From Escherichia coli (lineage in GTDB: Bacteria > Pseudomonadota > Gammaproteobacteria > Enterobacterales > Enterobacteriaceae), in NCBI RefSeq assembly GCF_009931435.1, contig NZ_CP043414.1: a stretch of 64,000 nt of DNA. The stretch is one strand, 5' to 3'. The notes under the pieces are model-generated. The model ran no database searches. It saw nothing but the letters and a program-made list of their open reading frames with translations, and was not told the origin of the DNA. The position numbers were made by a program, and so were the translations under genes. This document shows positions 12,961 through 49,845 of the stretch, in pieces. Positions within the stretch are counted from its first letter, which is position 1; each line of letters begins with the position of its first letter.

Positions 12961-13127
12961 AACGCCTGTGCGGTGAGCTCAGGTTCCGGGGAAATAGTGT
13001 CCATCATTTTAATGGGCACTATCATGGAAAATGGCTCTGTCACATTAACAGCGAAAGTTGCTGACCAGCCGGATGGATGATTTTTTTGCAACCAGAAGAC
13101 ACTGCCTCCGATCCGGCTTACAACAAG

Positions 13128-14198
13128 TTACACCGTCACAACCGGGACCCGTAACGCCAGCGCGCACATCAACTCATAACCCACGGTTCCGGCAGCGGCG
13201 GCAACATCATCAATTTTGATCTCCTTGCCCCACAGCTCAACCGGTGTACCAATACCCGCCTGCGGGCAAGGCGTTAAATCGACCGCCAGCATATCCATCG
13301 AGACTGTCCCCACCGTCATGGTACGCACGCCGTCGACTAAAACAGGTGTACCGGTAGGCGCGTGGCGCGGATAACCGTCGGCGTATCCTGCGGCAACAAT
13401 GCCGATTCGTTGCTCATCGCGCGCAGTATAGCGACCGCCATAGCCCACACGCTCACCCGCTTTTAGCGTCTGGACACCAATAATCTCACTGCTTAGCGTC
13501 ATTACCGGACGTAATCCGGTATTGGCGATATCGCGCCACTGACCCGACGGCGAAGCACCATACAAAATAATGCCAGGCCGAACCCAGTCAAAATGCGCTT
13601 CCGGATGCCACAGAGTCGCCGCCGAATTGGACAATGAACGCCGACATTCCAGCCCTTCCGCCGCCTGCTCAATACGCGCCATTGCGCCGGCAATCCCCTC
13701 AGGATGCTCCGCCTCGGCAAAATGCGACATCAGAGTCATTTCGCCAACATTCGCCATCGCCCGCAGCTGCTGCCAGACGGTAAGCACACGATCGGGCTGG
13801 AAGCCCAACCGATTCATCCCACTGTTCACTTTAAGATAAATATCCAACGGCGCTTTTAGCCGCGCATTTTGCAGTGCTTTGAGCTGCCAGTTGCTGTGGA
13901 CGCAGGTGGTCAGGCGGTACTGGTCATAAATCTCCAGATCCTGTGCATGGAAAAAACCCTCCAGCATCAGGATCGGTCCTTTCCAGCCGCGCTCACGTAA
14001 CGTTATTGCCTCTTCCAGATTAAGTAATGCAAAGCCATCGGTGGCCCCTAGCGCGCTCCAGATACGCTCAATACCGTGCCCGTAAGCATTCGCTTTTACC
14101 ACCGACCAGACACGCGCGTGCGGCGCGGCCTGCCGGACAATGGAAAGATTCTGTTTTAATGCCTGCAGATCGAGGCTGGCCTGTATCGGACGGGTCAT
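13128..14198 (-). CDS. dadX: Catabolic alanine racemase
   Basis: 356 aa; PLP site [10 protein letters not shown]; matches DadX. Confidence 0.93.
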
Positions 14199-14207
14199 CT
14201 CGTTTCC

Positions 14208-15551
<1,344 letters not shown>

Positions 15552-22349: not shown

Positions 22350-22681
22350 GTCTGTTCTTGCCAGCAGATCAATACTGATTCAGGCTATCAATATTTGTCG
22401 CTGCATAGACTGCTGATTTTTCGTTCTCTTATCCTGTGCTCACGCGGCCTTCTGGCGACGACGCTCATCCAGCAGAAATGAAAAATATCACCCGGCTAAA
22501 AATAGAATAGAAGCATTCGCCATAATGACATTAAACATTGTTTGATATTTATCATATTAATAGAAATAAAGACATTGACGCATCTCACCCGCCTAACTAT
22601 GAATTAGATGAAGTAAAATTCATTAATCGTTGTAAAACAGGGGTTTCATTACAATTTATATATTTAAAGAGGCGAATGATT

Positions 22682-42177: not shown

Positions 42178-42438
42178 ATGTCTATGCAAAGTCAAGGAAT
42201 GAACTTTGAAATGAACCTATACGCATATTTGAATAAATATGATAGTCGGCTTTCAGAAGAAAAACTTGCAATTGATAAGGCAGTTAGAGATTTATATCTT
42301 TGCAACGAACGCGTGGATAACAAGAGAATTATACTGAAATTGCTCTCATTTTTATCATCTGCTGATGACATTGTTGAAAAAGATATTATCAGGAATGCTT
42401 TGGAAGTGGTGCTTCTTTTTACATTAGACGATATTTAA
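42178..42438 (+). CDS. AriR/YmgB-family small protein (additional paralog)
   Basis: 86 aa; C-terminal two-thirds align with AriR (…DNKRIILKLLSFLSSADDIVEKDIIRNALEVVLLFTLDDI vs …[40 protein letters not shown]); GGGAG RBS 8 nt upstream. Confidence 0.7.
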   Translation: MSMQSQGMNFEMNLYAYLNKYDSRLSEEKLAIDKAVRDLYLCNERVDNKRIILKLLSFLSSADDIVEKDIIRNALEVVLLFTLDDI

Positions 42439-42686: not shown

Positions 42687-43010
42687 ATGAAGTGTATAGT
42701 AATTGATACTGTAATACAACCTTCGTGTGGTATATATTTTTCAGTCATATGGAGCGATATAAAAATGATCATTTGGTATCGTTCAAATATCTTTCTCCCA
42801 CCTGGCAGCATATTTACAGTTATTAAGTCAGGTATTATACTCGAGGATAAAGAATATCCGATCAGTATTTTTAACGTGGCGCTATTCAACAAAAATTTAT
42901 GGAATTTAATCAAAAATAGTCAAGAGTGTCCTACAGAATCAAACAAAATTACGAATAAATGCCTGCATAAGCATTGCATTATGCAAATATGTCCACATGG
43001 TCTCAAGTAA
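42687..43010 (+). CDS. iraM: Anti-adapter protein IraM (stabilises RpoS; PhoPQ-regulated in K-12)
   Basis: 107 aa [31 protein letters not shown]...CPHGLK; matches IraM. Confidence 0.88.
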
Positions 43011-43061
43011 TGGGGGTTATTTAACCTTCCCTATATGCTATAGATAAATCTACCAAAAACT

Positions 43062-43090
43062 GCCCCTTCGTAGAGGGGCTCTATGATTTT
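43062..43090 (+). terminator. Rho-independent terminator after iraM
   Basis: gcccct tcgtag aggggc hairpin followed by T-rich tctatgattttgtttt. Confidence 0.7.
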
Positions 43091-43606
43091 GTTTTATTTG
43101 AAGGCATGGTGCTGAATGTATTCGTTGAATCCAGATTCAACACCTGAAGCTGCACTTAACCCATAATACTTGTTTCTGGTTCCTCTACCGAGTGGTCAAA
43201 CAATGATATGTATGTGACGTCAGAGTTTATTTTTTTAGTGTTTAATGCTATTAATTTAACGTAGTTACCTATCTTTTTTCTACCTTCTGAACTAACCTTA
43301 GGTTTCAACGTATCCGGCAGGAGGGGCTATCCCCAATCTTAAATTTTGCTTCCCGATTTGCTCAAGCCAAAGTTTTAATTTTACAACCTATAAACCTGAG
43401 TTAAATCAACCTCATGGTGCTGTCTGTTCCCGCTGTGGAACAAGACTCACTGCAACATCTTGCATTCCTAAACTTCGCAGAAGGCGATGGGCAAAAACTG
43501 TACTGTAATGTTATTTCGATGTCTCTTATGGTAAATAGGAGGCGTCGAGGCTAAGTGAGTAGCCTGCTTGCTTCTCAAGCCTGGATACTATCAGCATTCA
43601 CGTCAG

Positions 43607-43645
43607 ATGAAATGATGATATTTCGCGTAAGAAAGAGGCATTTTT
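43607..43645. repeat. 39-bp repeat, copy B (see 33961..33999)
   Basis: 37/39 identity to the sequence just upstream of the autotransporter gene. Confidence 0.8.
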
Positions 43646-43744
43646 TTATCAACTTCACATCGGAGATGGTAATAATCCTATGGGTCCAGTCCATATGAGG
43701 GGGTCAACATACTATAAAATTCACAATCATAAATTAACTATATA

Positions 43745-45220
43745 TCAAGAACGCCAAAAAAATCCTGAAAATAGTATAATAACAGGGTAAATTTCAAGTC
43801 GACCAAGAATCATAGCAATACACATGAGATATTTTGCAATATCATTAAGAACACCGAATGAGGATGCGGTAGCCCCAAAACCCAGCCCCATATTATTAAT
43901 GCATGCAGCGACTGTCGCAAATGATGTAAGGAAATCATATCCCATACCGTTTAGCACCAGTATAAAAAACACTGTAAAGAAAGTATAAAGAAAAAAGAAA
44001 CTCCATACAGACCTCATTACGCGGTCTGTAACAATCTTCCCTCCTACATTTACACTAAGCAATGCTCTGGGATGAGAAAGCTGATTTATTTCGTGTTTAC
44101 TTTGTTTAAAAAGTATAAGAAATCTAAGTGATTTAATTCCGCCGCACGTTGAGCCTATACATCCCCCAAAAAAACTTGACAGCAGCAAAAAAACTATCGT
44201 ATGTGTGGGCCAGTTTGAATAATCCTGCGTAGCTAAACCATTATCAGTGAGCATGGAGCTAGCAAGAAAAAACGAATGAACAACACTTCCAGTTAAGTCA
44301 TACATACCTATATGCCAGACCTGGAAAGAGGTAACAATGATAACACCTGAAGCTATTAACAAAAAGAAACGAAGTTCAACATCTCTGAGTAAGGGTTTTA
44401 TTGTTTTCCTGCTTATAACAACATACCAAAGAGTGAAGTTGAAAGCCGATAACAGAGAAAAAGAGCCCGCCACCAGTTCAATCAAATAATTATTGAAATA
44501 ACCGATACTCTCACTATGAGTTGAAAAACCGCCAAGAGAAACTGTAGAAAGTCCATGACAAATAGCATCAAACAACGGCATTCCTGCAAGTCGATAACAA
44601 ACAATACAAGCAATGCCTAATAAAGAATAAGTTATCCAAAGTGTCCGCGACGTATCAGCCAGGCGTGGAGTCAGTTTGTCATCCTTAAATGGTCCTGGCA
44701 TTTCTGACTGATAAAGTTTTGCACCACCAATACCCAATAATGGCAACACAGCAACTGCCAGAACAATAACCCCTAAACCGCCTATAAAATTTAATTGTGA
44801 CCGGTAGAACAAATATGCCCGAGATAATGAACTGACATCATCAATTACTGTTGCTCCTGTTGTTGTTATTCCGGAAACCCCTTCAAACAGCGCGTCAGCA
44901 AACGTTAAATTAAGCTCTGAATCAATCCATAATGGAAATGCGCTAATAATAGAAAATAAAATCCAAAACATTACAATTATAATAAACCCATCACGGGTGC
45001 GTAATTGAATGCCAGATTTTTTAGTGGTATACCACGCTCCGCCACCAATACAAAAAAATATAACAAAAGTAATAAAAAAAACGAACAAGCTTTTTTCTTT
45101 ATAAAACAATGCTACAACCATTGGTGGTAACATTGAAAGACTATAGAGCCAGACCAAGAACCCACACATATGAGTTACAACTCTTACATGAGATGTATTC
45201 ATATCCAAATGTTCTTTCAA
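43745..45220 (-). CDS. TrkH/TrkG-family K+ uptake membrane protein (orphan, AT-rich)
   Basis: About 485 aa multi-TM protein; family-typical segments FADALFEGVSGITTTGATV, GGIKSLRFLILFKQ, ILGRLEIYPVIILFSGFFWRS parallel TrkH (ITDAFFESFSGLTTTGATT, GGLKVIRILLLFKQ, LFGRLEVFTLLVLFTPTFWRE). Track ORF begins with TTG at 45220; first ATG at 45202. Confidence 0.8.
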   Translation of the reverse strand: MKEHLDMNTSHVRVVTHMCGFLVWLYSLSMLPPMVVALFYKEKSLFVFFITFVIFFCIGGGAWYTTKKSGIQLRTRDGFIIIVMFWILFSIISAFPLWIDSELNLTFADALFEGVSGITTTGATVIDDVSSLSRAYLFYRSQLNFIGGLGVIVLAVAVLPLLGIGGAKLYQSEMPGPFKDDKLTPRLADTSRTLWITYSLLGIACIVCYRLAGMPLFDAICHGLSTVSLGGFSTHSESIGYFNNYLIELVAGSFSLLSAFNFTLWYVVISRKTIKPLLRDVELRFFLLIASGVIIVTSFQVWHIGMYDLTGSVVHSFFLASSMLTDNGLATQDYSNWPTHTIVFLLLSSFFGGCIGSTCGGIKSLRFLILFKQSKHEINQLSHPRALLSVNVGGKIVTDRVMRSVWSFFFLYTFFTVFFILVLNGMGYDFLTSFATVAACINNMGLGFGATASSFGVLNDIAKYLMCIAMILGRLEIYPVIILFSGFFWRS

Positions 45221-45629
45221 TTATAACCACCTTACTGCAATGTCATGATTATACTGTATAAATTTTAACTCTTCTTAGATCTTACTTCACTGGTCCTTAT
45301 GAAACAATCAGCAAAATGAATCTTATTATAACACTGTTCGGTTATGTATTGTTGAGCCTTCCCGCTGGGCCTGCATCATTACAAGTCGCTCCCTATGGGG
45401 CTTTGTCGAATAAATAATTTTTCGGTAAGTGTCCCCTGAGCAGGTTGTATCTTCAGGCAGTATGAACACTTTCTGGTATACCTACCTTCGTCATTATGTT
45501 CAGCGTATGCACCATGACCAAAGCCTCTGCAACCGGCCTATCATAATCTAGCAGCATCAGAGAACCTCAGAATAACTGTTTTACCCTGTACATTGCCGTT
45601 TCCGCTATTGAGCAACGATTGTAATCTTT

Positions 45630-47617
<1,988 letters not shown>

Positions 47618-48113
47618 TCAATCGCTGATACGCGACTGCACAGTTACGGTCGGCATACTCACCGGGCCAGTAACCCGCTCCTTTTTGGGGTGGGATGAGC
47701 GCGCTGATTTTCACACGGCGCAGCTGCTCGTAACAGAGCCGAGAGGCGTAAACTCCGTCTGCTGCTGTCCTGATTTTTTGATGGGTTTGCCGGATTAATC
47801 CGGCTACACCTCTACATCCGTTACGCTGAATGCTGAGGTCGCCCTTGGGAAGAAGGCATTGCTGACTTATACCAATCCGAAATCACCTACTCGTCCAACC
47901 AGACAGGGAGGGGCCTCGGTTGATAAGAGCTCTGTTATTGATGTGCCAGTTGGTGATTCTAACTTTTGCTTTGTAACGGGACGAGCCGTGTTGGCAGATG
48001 ATGTGTGGTCTGATCCTTAAACTCAGTAAAAGTACGATTTATTCAAAAAAGCCCCTCCACTATGATTTCGATTTAAGGGGCTGATGATTATGTAACGCGA
48101 ATTTACCGGATCC

Positions 48114-49499
<1,386 letters not shown>

Positions 49500-49811
49500 T
49501 CAGGGGGGTTGATATTCCGGATCGTGCCGTGTTTGCCCACGGCTCCCCCTGGAGAGCTGCAGACCTGTTTATTTAACTCGCACAGCGCCGGGGCCTGTCA
49601 GTAAACAGGGAGCATAACCGTCGTGCCATTAAACGCCAGACGGGAGATCATTATTATTTTATTAATACAGATCCGTTGCATTCCGGTCTTTACCGCAGTT
49701 TAAAAGAAAAGAGAATAGGGACTTAGGCAGTAGAGCAGTCATTGGACAGACCACACTACCCCAAACTAGCAGGGGAGTTTTGATAAAATTTTAATAACCG
49801 TTAGCAGGCTA

Positions 49812-49845
49812 ACAAAAAAACAACGGGCGTGTTATACGCCCGTTT
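49812..49845 (-). terminator. Rho-independent terminator after icd
   Basis: On the minus strand: aacgggcgt ataac acgcccgtt hairpin followed by tttttttg. Confidence 0.8.

What the first reader, a model, noticed from the sequence alone, without database searches (positions are those of the whole stretch)
43745..45220. Orphan AT-rich TrkG/TrkH-like K+ transporter carried on the island
The protein has the TrkH family hallmark segments but the gene is much more AT-rich than the flanking core genes and sits alone, with no trkA or other Trk partner nearby. K-12 carries its second Trk membrane subunit (trkG) on the rac prophage, so a horizontally acquired trk paralog at a different prophage-type site is a parallel case of mobile elements delivering K+ transporter subunits. 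The start codon is ambiguous (TTG at 45220 with a GGTGG Shine-Dalgarno, or ATG at 45202).
Basis: partly seen in the sequence, partly recalled or inferred. Interest (0 to 1): 0.4.

Follow-up and report, generated by a model that had tools for sequence, protein, structure and literature searches.

The report
Known trkG potassium transporter, unusual location
This gene is E. coli's already-known, phage-derived second potassium-channel subunit TrkG, here as a rarer sequence variant stranded on a small chromosomal islet beside the icd gene instead of inside the Rac prophage, so it is essentially ordinary.

Summary
An intact ORF lies at 43745-45220 (-). It is a full-length TrkH-family protein (Pfam PF02386, 477 bits) and the most AT-rich gene in the window (GC 37%, GC3 29%; icd 51%/54%).

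It is not a new paralog. It is trkG itself: 96% amino-acid identity to K-12 Rac TrkG and 40% to TrkH. The exact protein is already in public databases, named TrkG, on at least 1000 contigs.

What is less usual:
- **Divergent allele.** It is 90.7% nucleotide-identical to the Rac allele, with dS 0.45 and dN/dS 0.04, so it is under strong purifying selection.
- **Location.** It sits on a 4.8-kb islet (6.8 kb here, because of an extra IS100). The islet is inserted between iraM and the icd terminator, outside the e14 attachment site. It occurs in 18 of 5426 complete E. coli genomes.
- **Phage origin.** A roughly 63-bp remnant of the phage spanin gene Rz still sits upstream, at the same Rz-trkG junction seen in Rac and in sequenced lambdoid phage records (vB_EcoS). 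The copy therefore descends from the same phage moron, not from a parallel capture.

The start-codon question resolves in favour of TTG at 45220 (491 aa). That TTG/GTG codon and its Shine-Dalgarno are conserved across the TrkG clade, and several relatives have no ATG at the downstream position.

Having no trkA nearby is normal for E. coli. Interest is low.

The parts
43745..45220 (-). trkG coding sequence. It is 491 codons from the TTG at 45220; the conventional annotation starts at the ATG at 45202 and gives 485 aa.
   Evidence: ORF list and translation. Pfam TrkH 477 bits. 468/485 identical to K-12 TrkG. dN/dS 0.042. The exact protein is in public databases, named TrkG.
45227..45233 (-). Shine-Dalgarno-like AAGGTGG, six bases upstream of the TTG start.
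   Evidence: Sequence. It is identical in the K-12 allele. Equivalent sites precede the TTG at the same codon in E. fergusonii (GGAGG), a Citrobacter sp. (GGGGTG) and a Pectobacterium-like genome (GGGAG).
45248..45253 (-). TATAAT hexamer in the conserved 190-bp upstream region. It is a possible -10 element of the gene's own promoter; this is inferred.
   Evidence: Conserved in both alleles. The consensus scan did not call it, because no good -35 is present.
45331..45393 (-). Remnant of the 3' end of a phage spanin gene (Rz). It carries a 2-bp deletion and has lost its last 18 bp and stop codon.
   Evidence: It aligns to the end of rzpR in K-12 Rac and to the prophage copy in strain ET915. The same Rz-trkG junction occurs in the vB_EcoS phage records.
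43695..43744 (-). The 50 bp downstream of the stop codon that are still homologous to the Rac trkG cassette. Homology ends at 43695.
   Evidence: blastn boundaries and alignment.
43054..43694 (.). A 640-bp non-coding spacer on the iraM side of the islet. It is found in full only in genomes carrying this islet. It includes a bidirectional hairpin at 43062-43079 and a 40-nt dispersed repeat at 43606-43645.
   Evidence: no ORF longer than 50 aa. No Rfam family matched.
45399..45630 (.). Right part of an internally deleted IS903-like (IS5-family) remnant. Its terminal inverted repeat GGCTTTGTCGAATAAAT starts at 45399.
   Evidence: 80% identity to IS903 in phages HK022 and P7. PGAP annotates an IS5/IS1182 transposase pseudogene here. 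Sequence.
45631..47584 (-). IS100 (IS21 family, istA and istB), 1954 bp with a 5-bp CTTTT target duplication. It is inserted into the IS903-like remnant about 410 bp upstream of trkG, in the same orientation as trkG.
   Evidence: Gap in the alignment to strain 2020CK-00188. Pfam rve and IstB_IS21 hits. 28-nt inverted repeats. 98.9% identity to an annotated IS100, and the target duplication.
47585..48053 (.). Left part of the IS903-like remnant. Its terminal inverted repeat ends at 48053.
48114..49481 (-). A 455-aa hypothetical protein gene that forms the icd-side half of the islet. Its function is unknown and its GC is normal.
   Evidence: No Pfam, NCBIfam or PADLOC hit. Weak PHROG hits to families of unknown function. 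Relatives occur in E. coli only. GC 48.9%.
43054..49813 (.). The whole islet (6760 bp; 4801 bp without IS100 and its 5-bp duplication), inserted between the iraM 3' region and the icd terminator.
   Evidence: Junctions mapped against the empty sites in ET915 and TW10722. The same islet is present in 18 complete genomes and in every context read for the exact protein.

Best explanation
The gene is trkG, the accessory pore-forming membrane subunit of the E. coli Trk K+ uptake system. Here it is a second, anciently diverged allele.

Its history, as far as the sequence shows: trkG was carried as a moron between the lysis cassette (S-R-Rz) and the packaging genes of a lambdoid, Rac-like phage. In this lineage the phage has been stripped away. 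What remains is a 63-bp Rz remnant, the gene's own upstream region and the gene, lying in a small islet between iraM and icd together with an unrelated hypothetical gene, an IS903-like remnant and, in this genome only, an IS100.

By inference from K-12 TrkG, the protein forms a dimeric K+ pore in the inner membrane. That pore would be gated by the core-encoded cytoplasmic TrkA ring with help from SapD. It would take up K+ in a Na+-dependent way, also admit Na+, and back up the main subunit TrkH. Because the gene is very AT-rich, its transcription is probably damped by H-NS.

Translation most likely starts at the TTG at 45220, giving 491 aa.

Shown here: identity, family, composition, selection, genomic anatomy and distribution. 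Inferred: transport activity, partners, regulation and start-codon use.
For: - **Family.** Full-length Pfam TrkH and TIGR00933 matches above cutoff. 400-bit full-length matches to the solved TrkH structures 3pjz and 4j9u, against only E 1e-9 to 1e-5 for KtrB.
- **Identity.** 468/485 residues identical to K-12 TrkG with no gaps. 40% identity to TrkH. Same 90% cluster as E. coli TrkG. Sister to K-12 TrkG in a neighbour-joining tree rooted on TrkH.
- **Key residues.** The P-loop glycine motifs and the acidic residues D121, E231 and D327 are all retained. D327 is implicated in Na+ activation (PMC9898762).
- **Selection.** There are 136 nucleotide differences, spread evenly, but only 17 amino-acid changes. 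dS is 0.45, dN is 0.019 and dN/dS is 0.042. The ORF is intact, and the identical protein is seen on at least 1000 contigs.
- **Phage ancestry.** Homology to Rac runs from 43695 to 45393 and includes the Rz 3' end. Phage vB_EcoS-683R6 has the order Q, S, R, Rz, trkG, parB, terminase. 1521 genomes keep the Rz-trkG-ynaK module.
- **Accessory status.** trkG occurs in 1550 of 5426 genomes and this allele in 18. trkH occurs in 5425 of 5426.
- **Start codon.** The TTG and its Shine-Dalgarno are conserved in both E. coli alleles, in E. fergusonii, in a Citrobacter sp. and in a Pectobacterium-like genome. E. cloacae has GTG at the same codon. The codon aligned with the E. coli ATG is CTG, ATT or TTA in those relatives. 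The phage record annotates a 1476-nt (491-aa) CDS.
- **Function and regulation of K-12 TrkG.** Na+-dependent K+ uptake, Na+ uptake, TrkA dependence, and partial H-NS repression are reported in PMC9898762.
Against: - No experiment was done on this allele.
- Two of the 17 substitutions (A329S and S330N) lie next to D327. S330 is one of the residues modelled as contacting D327, so Na+ dependence could differ from K-12.
- The promoter scan found no good sigma-70 match upstream.
- The IS100 sits about 410 bp upstream, in the same orientation, and could alter expression.
- The ATG at 45202 is what RefSeq and K-12 annotate, and it may also be used.
- The origin of the rest of the islet (the 455-aa ORF and the 640-bp spacer) is unexplained. 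How the Rz-trkG fragment reached this spot is therefore not established.
Confidence: 0.9

Rival explanations
1. It is an independently captured trk paralog from a different donor, delivered by a different mobile element.
For: The location differs from Rac, and the nucleotide divergence from the Rac allele is high (9.3%, dS 0.45). No phage record carries this allele; the best match is 89.5%. TrkG-clade genes sit at several unrelated chromosomal sites in other Enterobacterales.
Against: The homology to Rac extends beyond the gene into the Rz 3' end and the promoter region, and it stops at the same downstream point, 50 bp after the stop codon. The two E. coli alleles are each other's closest relatives at 96% amino-acid identity; the next relative is at 79%. 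The simplest reading is one capture by a lambdoid phage lineage, followed by divergence within the phage pool.
Confidence: 0.06
2. It is a decaying relic: a silenced, non-functional leftover of a degraded prophage.
For: The surroundings are debris: a truncated Rz, an internally deleted IS903-like element and an IS100 insertion. The gene is extremely AT-rich, which is typical of H-NS-silenced DNA. K-12 TrkG is the minor system (PMC9898762).
Against: The full-length ORF is intact. dN/dS is 0.042 over dS 0.45. All pore motifs are kept. The identical protein is maintained on at least 1000 contigs at the same locus. In K-12, trkG is expressed at a level similar to trkH and can substitute for it (PMC9898762).
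Confidence: 0.04
3. It is the vertically inherited core trkH of this genome.
For: None beyond membership of the same family.
Against: It is 40% identical to TrkH and scores 448 bits against the TrkH equivalog cutoff of 866. trkH lies at its own locus in 5425 of 5426 genomes at 95% identity or more. GC3 is 0.29, against 0.63 for trkH.
Confidence: 0

Closest known systems
TrkG of E. coli K-12 (b1363, P23849), in the Rac cryptic prophage
   Same: 96% amino-acid identity with no gaps. The upstream Rz-remnant/promoter region and the 50-bp downstream boundary are the same. GC is similarly low (37.4% vs 38.1%). D121, E231, D327 and the pore glycines are the same.
   Different: There are 136 nucleotide differences (dS 0.45) and 17 substitutions, including A329S and S330N next to D327. 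The gene lies in a prophage-free islet between iraM and icd instead of between rzpR and ynaK in Rac. This type is rare: 18 genomes against about 1520 with the prophage module.
trkG moron of lambdoid phage records (e.g. Escherichia phage vB_EcoS-683R6, ON470595)
   Same: The same gene and the same Rz-trkG junction. The phage record annotates the 491-aa TTG-start form.
   Different: Nucleotide identity is 89.5%. In the window every phage gene except about 63 bp of Rz is gone.
Chromosomal TrkG-clade paralogs of other Enterobacterales (E. fergusonii, a Citrobacter sp., a Pectobacterium-like genome, Enterobacter, Serratia, Buttiauxella, Xenorhabdus)
   Same: They belong to the same clade, distinct from TrkH, at 62-79% identity. 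A non-ATG start is conserved at the same codon in the relatives at roughly 70% identity or above that were read at DNA level.
   Different: They lie at unrelated non-phage chromosomal sites. In E. cloacae the gene has host-like GC (56.7% against 58% in the flanks).
TrkH (E. coli b3849; V. parahaemolyticus, PDB 3pjz and 4j9u)
   Same: The same family and the same full-length architecture.
   Different: Identity is only 40%. TrkH is a core gene of normal GC, and in K-12 it is independent of Na+ (PMC9898762).

Membership tests
TrkH/TrkG family (Pfam PF02386; TIGR00933) | Full-length match to the family profile above the curated cutoff | tested here: met
   PF02386 scores 477.5 bits (cutoff 27) over residues 40-483. 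TIGR00933 scores 406.3 bits (cutoff 331.15).
TrkH/TrkG family (Pfam PF02386; TIGR00933) | Four pore loops, each with the conserved selectivity-filter glycine | tested here: met
   TTTGAT (from residue 114), SLGGFS (from 224) and TDNGLA (from 320) were located. The fourth, NNMGLG, is identical to K-12 TrkG.
TrkH/TrkG family (Pfam PF02386; TIGR00933) | Sequence similarity across the whole length to an experimentally solved TrkH | tested here: met
   3pjz and 4j9u: E 1.4e-118, query residues 7-485 against chain residues 4-485. No structure was predicted here.
TrkG (E. coli ortholog group) | Closest relative is K-12 TrkG, not TrkH or KtrB | tested here: met
   96% against 40% identity. Sister to K-12 TrkG in the neighbour-joining tree. 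Same 90% cluster, and the exact sequence is named TrkG by NCBI.
TrkG (E. coli ortholog group) | Acidic residue D327 near the third pore glycine, linked to Na+ activation (PMC9898762) | tested here: met
   D121, E231 and D327 are present. The neighbours differ: A329S and S330N.
TrkG (E. coli ortholog group) | Na+-dependent K+ uptake that requires TrkA (and SapD) | not testable with these tools
   This needs a transport or complementation assay. trkA and sapD are not in the window.
TrkG (E. coli ortholog group) | Carried within the Rac or another lambdoid prophage, between Rz and the parB-like ynaK | tested here: not met
   Only a 63-bp Rz remnant is left and there is no ynaK. The islet lies between iraM and icd. 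Location is a historical attribute, not a requirement for function.
TrkH equivalog (NCBIfam NF008020) | Score above the equivalog cutoff | tested here: not met
   448 bits against a cutoff of 866.
KtrB | Best similarity to KtrB proteins | tested here: not met
   KtrB chains score only E 5.6e-9 to 8.5e-5, against 1e-118 for TrkH.
Cargo of the e14 prophage (integrates in icd) | Lies between the e14 attachment sites (icd and icdC) | tested here: not met
   The window has no icdC duplicate. The islet starts 54 bp downstream of the icd stop codon, beyond the terminator. In locus L012 the e14-like prophage and icdC lie upstream of the islet.

The most novel reading that the evidence does not exclude
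The icd-iraM copy may be a domesticated second lineage of trkG. On this reading it diverged from the Rac allele long before E. coli diversified: dS is 0.45, whereas trkH varies by 5% or less across the species. It would then have been retained under strong purifying selection after every phage function was lost, which implies a direct fitness benefit of Na+-coupled K+ uptake in the lineages that carry it. A connected point is that the whole TrkG clade, K-12 TrkG included, probably initiates at a conserved TTG/GTG six codons upstream of the annotated ATG. The reference annotation would then be six residues short.
Probability: 0.5. Interest if true: 0.25.

Novelty: already known. Interest (0 to 1): 0.12.

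Why it matters
It matters little. trkG as a low-GC, phage-delivered second Trk subunit is textbook. The exact protein is already catalogued and correctly named.

Three modest points could be useful:
- trkG survives as a stand-alone chromosomal islet under strong purifying selection. This supports the view that it is a selected accessory transporter and not prophage junk.
- Two allele lineages exist, with substitutions next to the Na+-activation residue D327. They offer a natural pair for structure-function tests.
- Comparative evidence suggests the annotated start of TrkG is six codons too short.

Tried and rejected
- **Core trkH:** rejected.
- **KtrB-type subunit:** rejected.
- **Cargo of e14 or insertion at the e14 att site:** rejected. 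The window has no icdC, the islet lies beyond the icd terminator, and e14 coexists upstream of it in L012.
- **An intact phage carrying this allele:** none found. All phage hits are the Rac-type allele at 89.5%.
- **IS903-like element as the cause of the Rz truncation:** unclear. Near-identical 9/10-nt direct repeats (CTCC-CTATG and CTCCACTATG) flank the element. That would fit a decayed target duplication, meaning the truncation came before the IS insertion. The match is imperfect, so I do not rely on it.
- **Function of the neighbouring 455-aa ORF:** Pfam, NCBIfam and PADLOC found nothing. PHROGs gave only weak hits to families of unknown function. The homolog search found only E. coli hypothetical proteins.
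- **RNA families in the islet:** none found.
- **Promoter and terminator scan:** it gave no more promoter-like sites than shuffled sequence, and it called no promoter upstream of trkG and no terminator immediately downstream of it.
- **The original 1991 trkG paper (PMC207911):** not held, so I could not check what was said about the start codon.

Full report
**Observation**

It runs from 43745 to 45220 on the minus strand. That is 491 codons from a TTG, or 485 from the ATG at 45202.

The product matches Pfam TrkH (PF02386) over its full length at 477.5 bits. It also matches the TIGR00933 TrkH-family subfamily at 406 bits against a cutoff of 331. It misses the TrkH equivalog model, scoring 448 against a cutoff of 866. 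Against solved structures it aligns end to end with V. parahaemolyticus TrkH (3pjz, 4j9u; E about 1e-118). It aligns only weakly with KtrB.

The gene is compositionally extreme. GC is 37.4% and GC3 is 29.3%, compared with 50.8%/54.2% for the neighbouring icd and 48.2% for the window. It has the lowest GC3 of the 44 ORFs of at least 150 aa in the window. It also has the lowest codon similarity to the core-like genes. The genes on its iraM side are AT-rich too.

**Identity**

The protein is TrkG itself, not a new paralog.
- It is 468/485 identical, without gaps, to K-12 TrkG from the Rac prophage.
- It is 40% identical to K-12 TrkH.
- It falls in the same 90% cluster as E. coli TrkG.
- It is sister to K-12 TrkG in a neighbour-joining tree rooted on TrkH. 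Chromosomal TrkG-like proteins of other Enterobacterales, at 62-79% identity, branch outside that pair.
- The exact sequence is already in the public collection. NCBI names it Trk system potassium transporter TrkG, and it has been seen on at least 1000 contigs.
- RefSeq annotates it as trkG in every complete genome that has it.

**A distinct allele under selection**

At the DNA level the window copy and the Rac copy differ at 136 of 1458 positions, spread evenly along the gene. Only 17 of these change an amino acid. dS is 0.45, dN is 0.019 and dN/dS is 0.042.

For comparison, trkH varies by at most 5% across 5425 genomes. The two trkG lineages therefore separated well before the diversification of E. 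coli, presumably in the phage pool. Both have been kept under strong purifying selection.

All pore-loop glycine motifs are retained. So are D121, E231 and D327, the last of which is implicated in Na+ activation. Two substitutions, A329S and S330N, sit next to D327.

**Distribution**

| Feature | Complete E. coli genomes (of 5426) |
|---|---|
| trkG, any allele | 1550 |
| trkG, window allele (at least 99% identity) | 18 |
| Rac-type Rz-trkG-ynaK module, at least 80% covered | 1521 |
| trkH | 5425 |

The 18 genomes with the window allele each hold a single trkG copy.

**Anatomy of the locus**

Homology to Rac covers window 43695-45393. That span is the gene, 50 bp downstream of it, and about 190 bp upstream.

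The upstream part ends in a recognisable remnant of the 3' end of the phage spanin gene Rz (45331-45393). The remnant carries a 2-bp deletion and has lost its last 18 bp. The same Rz-trkG junction is present in Rac, in an e14/Rac mosaic in strain ET915, and in ten phage records. In phage vB_EcoS-683R6 the gene order is Q, S, R, Rz, trkG, parB, terminase. The window copy therefore descends from the same lambdoid-phage moron.

Upstream of the Rz remnant lies an internally deleted IS903-like element with both terminal repeats (45399-45630 and 47585-48053). In this genome alone it is split by a complete IS100 at 45631-47584. The IS100 is 1954 bp long, has a CTTTT target duplication, and is 98.9% identical to an annotated IS100.

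Next comes a 455-aa hypothetical gene of normal GC (48114-49481). No family matches it and its relatives are found only in E. coli.

**Insertion site**

Comparison with genomes in which iraM and icd are adjacent shows that the whole block 43054-49813 occupies a 3-bp gap between the iraM 3' region and the icd terminator hairpin. TW10722 has a 102-bp iraM-icd spacer; ET915 has icdC there.

This position is outside the e14 attachment site, which lies inside icd. In one genome that carries both, the e14-like prophage and icdC lie upstream of the islet.

Every context read for the exact protein has the same order: icd, 455-aa ORF, trkG, iraM. The flanking islet segments occur in full only in the same 18 complete genomes.

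The window is otherwise collinear with strain 2020CK-00188 at about 98-99.5% identity.

**Start codon**

The TTG at 45220 and the AAGGTGG six bases upstream of it are identical in the K-12 allele.

In E. fergusonii (79% identity), a Citrobacter sp. (78%) and a Pectobacterium-like genome (75%), a TTG preceded by a purine-rich Shine-Dalgarno sits at exactly the same codon. E. cloacae has GTG there. In the Citrobacter, Pectobacterium-like and E. cloacae genes, the codon aligned with the E. coli ATG is CTG, ATT and TTA respectively, so it cannot be the start. More distant members, such as the Serratia protein at 66%, start near the E. coli ATG position instead.

The ATG at 45202 has no Shine-Dalgarno. 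One phage record already annotates the 491-aa form.

I therefore favour the TTG, with about 0.65 confidence. This would also mean that the conventional 485-aa K-12 annotation is six residues short. It needs experimental confirmation.

**How it most likely works (inferred from K-12 TrkG)**

Tanudjaja et al. 2022 (PMC9898762) report the following for K-12.
- TrkG and TrkH share the cytoplasmic gating protein TrkA.
- TrkG-mediated K+ uptake requires Na+, with half-activation near 2 mM.
- TrkG also admits Na+.
- TrkG is the minor system but can replace TrkH.
- trkG transcription is partly repressed by H-NS.

The same paper cites earlier work for differences in SapD (TrkE) dependence.

With 96% identity and all key residues kept, the window protein is expected to behave the same way, using the core trkA and sapD encoded elsewhere. 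The absence of a trk partner nearby is the normal E. coli arrangement and not a sign of an orphan. Whether A329S/S330N shifts Na+ dependence, and whether the upstream IS100 changes expression, is unknown.

**Origin of the clade**

TrkG-like genes occur at unrelated, non-phage chromosomal sites in other Enterobacterales.
- In E. fergusonii the gene lies between porin genes and an hchA-like gene.
- In a Pectobacterium-like genome it lies after ychF.
- In E. cloacae it lies between a radical-SAM gene and a multicopper-oxidase gene, with host-like GC (56.7%).

TrkG is thus an old enterobacterial paralog of TrkH, and a phage picked up one version of it.

**Verdict**

It is wrong in treating it as a parallel, independent capture at a prophage site.

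The gene is a known gene with a known name. The only mildly new points are the divergent allele, its prophage-free islet and the start-codon inference. Interest is low.

Noticed in passing
window 45631-47584: A complete IS100 (IS21 family, istA and istB) with a 5-bp CTTTT target duplication is inserted into an older IS903-like remnant. It lies about 410 bp upstream of trkG, in the same orientation. It is absent from all 18 complete genomes that share the islet. Read-through into trkG is conceivable but was not tested.
   Followed up: partly
window 48114-49481 (-): A 455-aa hypothetical gene lies next to icd. It has an internal tandem duplication (repeat spacing about 465 nt) and two HTH-like C-terminal repeats. 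It has no Pfam, NCBIfam or PADLOC match, and only weak hits to PHROG families of unknown function. Its relatives (35-61% identity) come only from E. coli. Its GC is normal, unlike trkG, so the islet is a composite.
   Followed up: partly
window 45218-45233; K-12 locus L003 8742-8785: A TTG start with a Shine-Dalgarno, 18 nt upstream of the annotated ATG, is conserved across the TrkG clade. The reference K-12 TrkG annotation (485 aa) may be six codons short.
   Followed up: yes
window 42687-43010 (+) and 42178-42438 (+): The iraM allele here is only about 80% nucleotide-identical to the K-12-type iraM. An extra YmgB/AriR-family ORF (86 aa) lies between ycgX and iraM, where K-12-type genomes have ymgL and ymgK.
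   Followed up: no
window 43606-43645: A 40-nt element in the trkG-iraM spacer matches, at 93-95%, a sequence next to ymgJ and the autotransporter gene in thousands of E. coli genomes. It is a small dispersed repeat of unknown nature.
   Followed up: no
window 29178-33940 (-): The AIDA-repeat autotransporter gene is split into two overlapping ORFs (743 and 845 aa). In strain 2020CK-00188 it is a single 4677-nt gene. An indel in the repeat region near 31470 may have caused a frameshift, or it may be assembly noise.
   Followed up: no
window ~5710 and ~22340: Relative to strain 2020CK-00188, the window lacks about 1 kb inside a TonB-dependent receptor gene. It also lacks the ISKox3 copy between hlyE and umuD.
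   Followed up: no
window 22370-22448 (-): The only Rfam match in the window at gathering threshold is the sRNA C0299 (111.9 bits).
   Followed up: no
locus L002 (E. coli ET915) 9290-15476: In several genomes a Rac-type holin-lysozyme-Rz-trkG-ynaK block, flanked by two IS1B copies, sits inside an e14 remnant at icd. This is a second, independent way in which trkG has ended up next to icd.
   Followed up: partly
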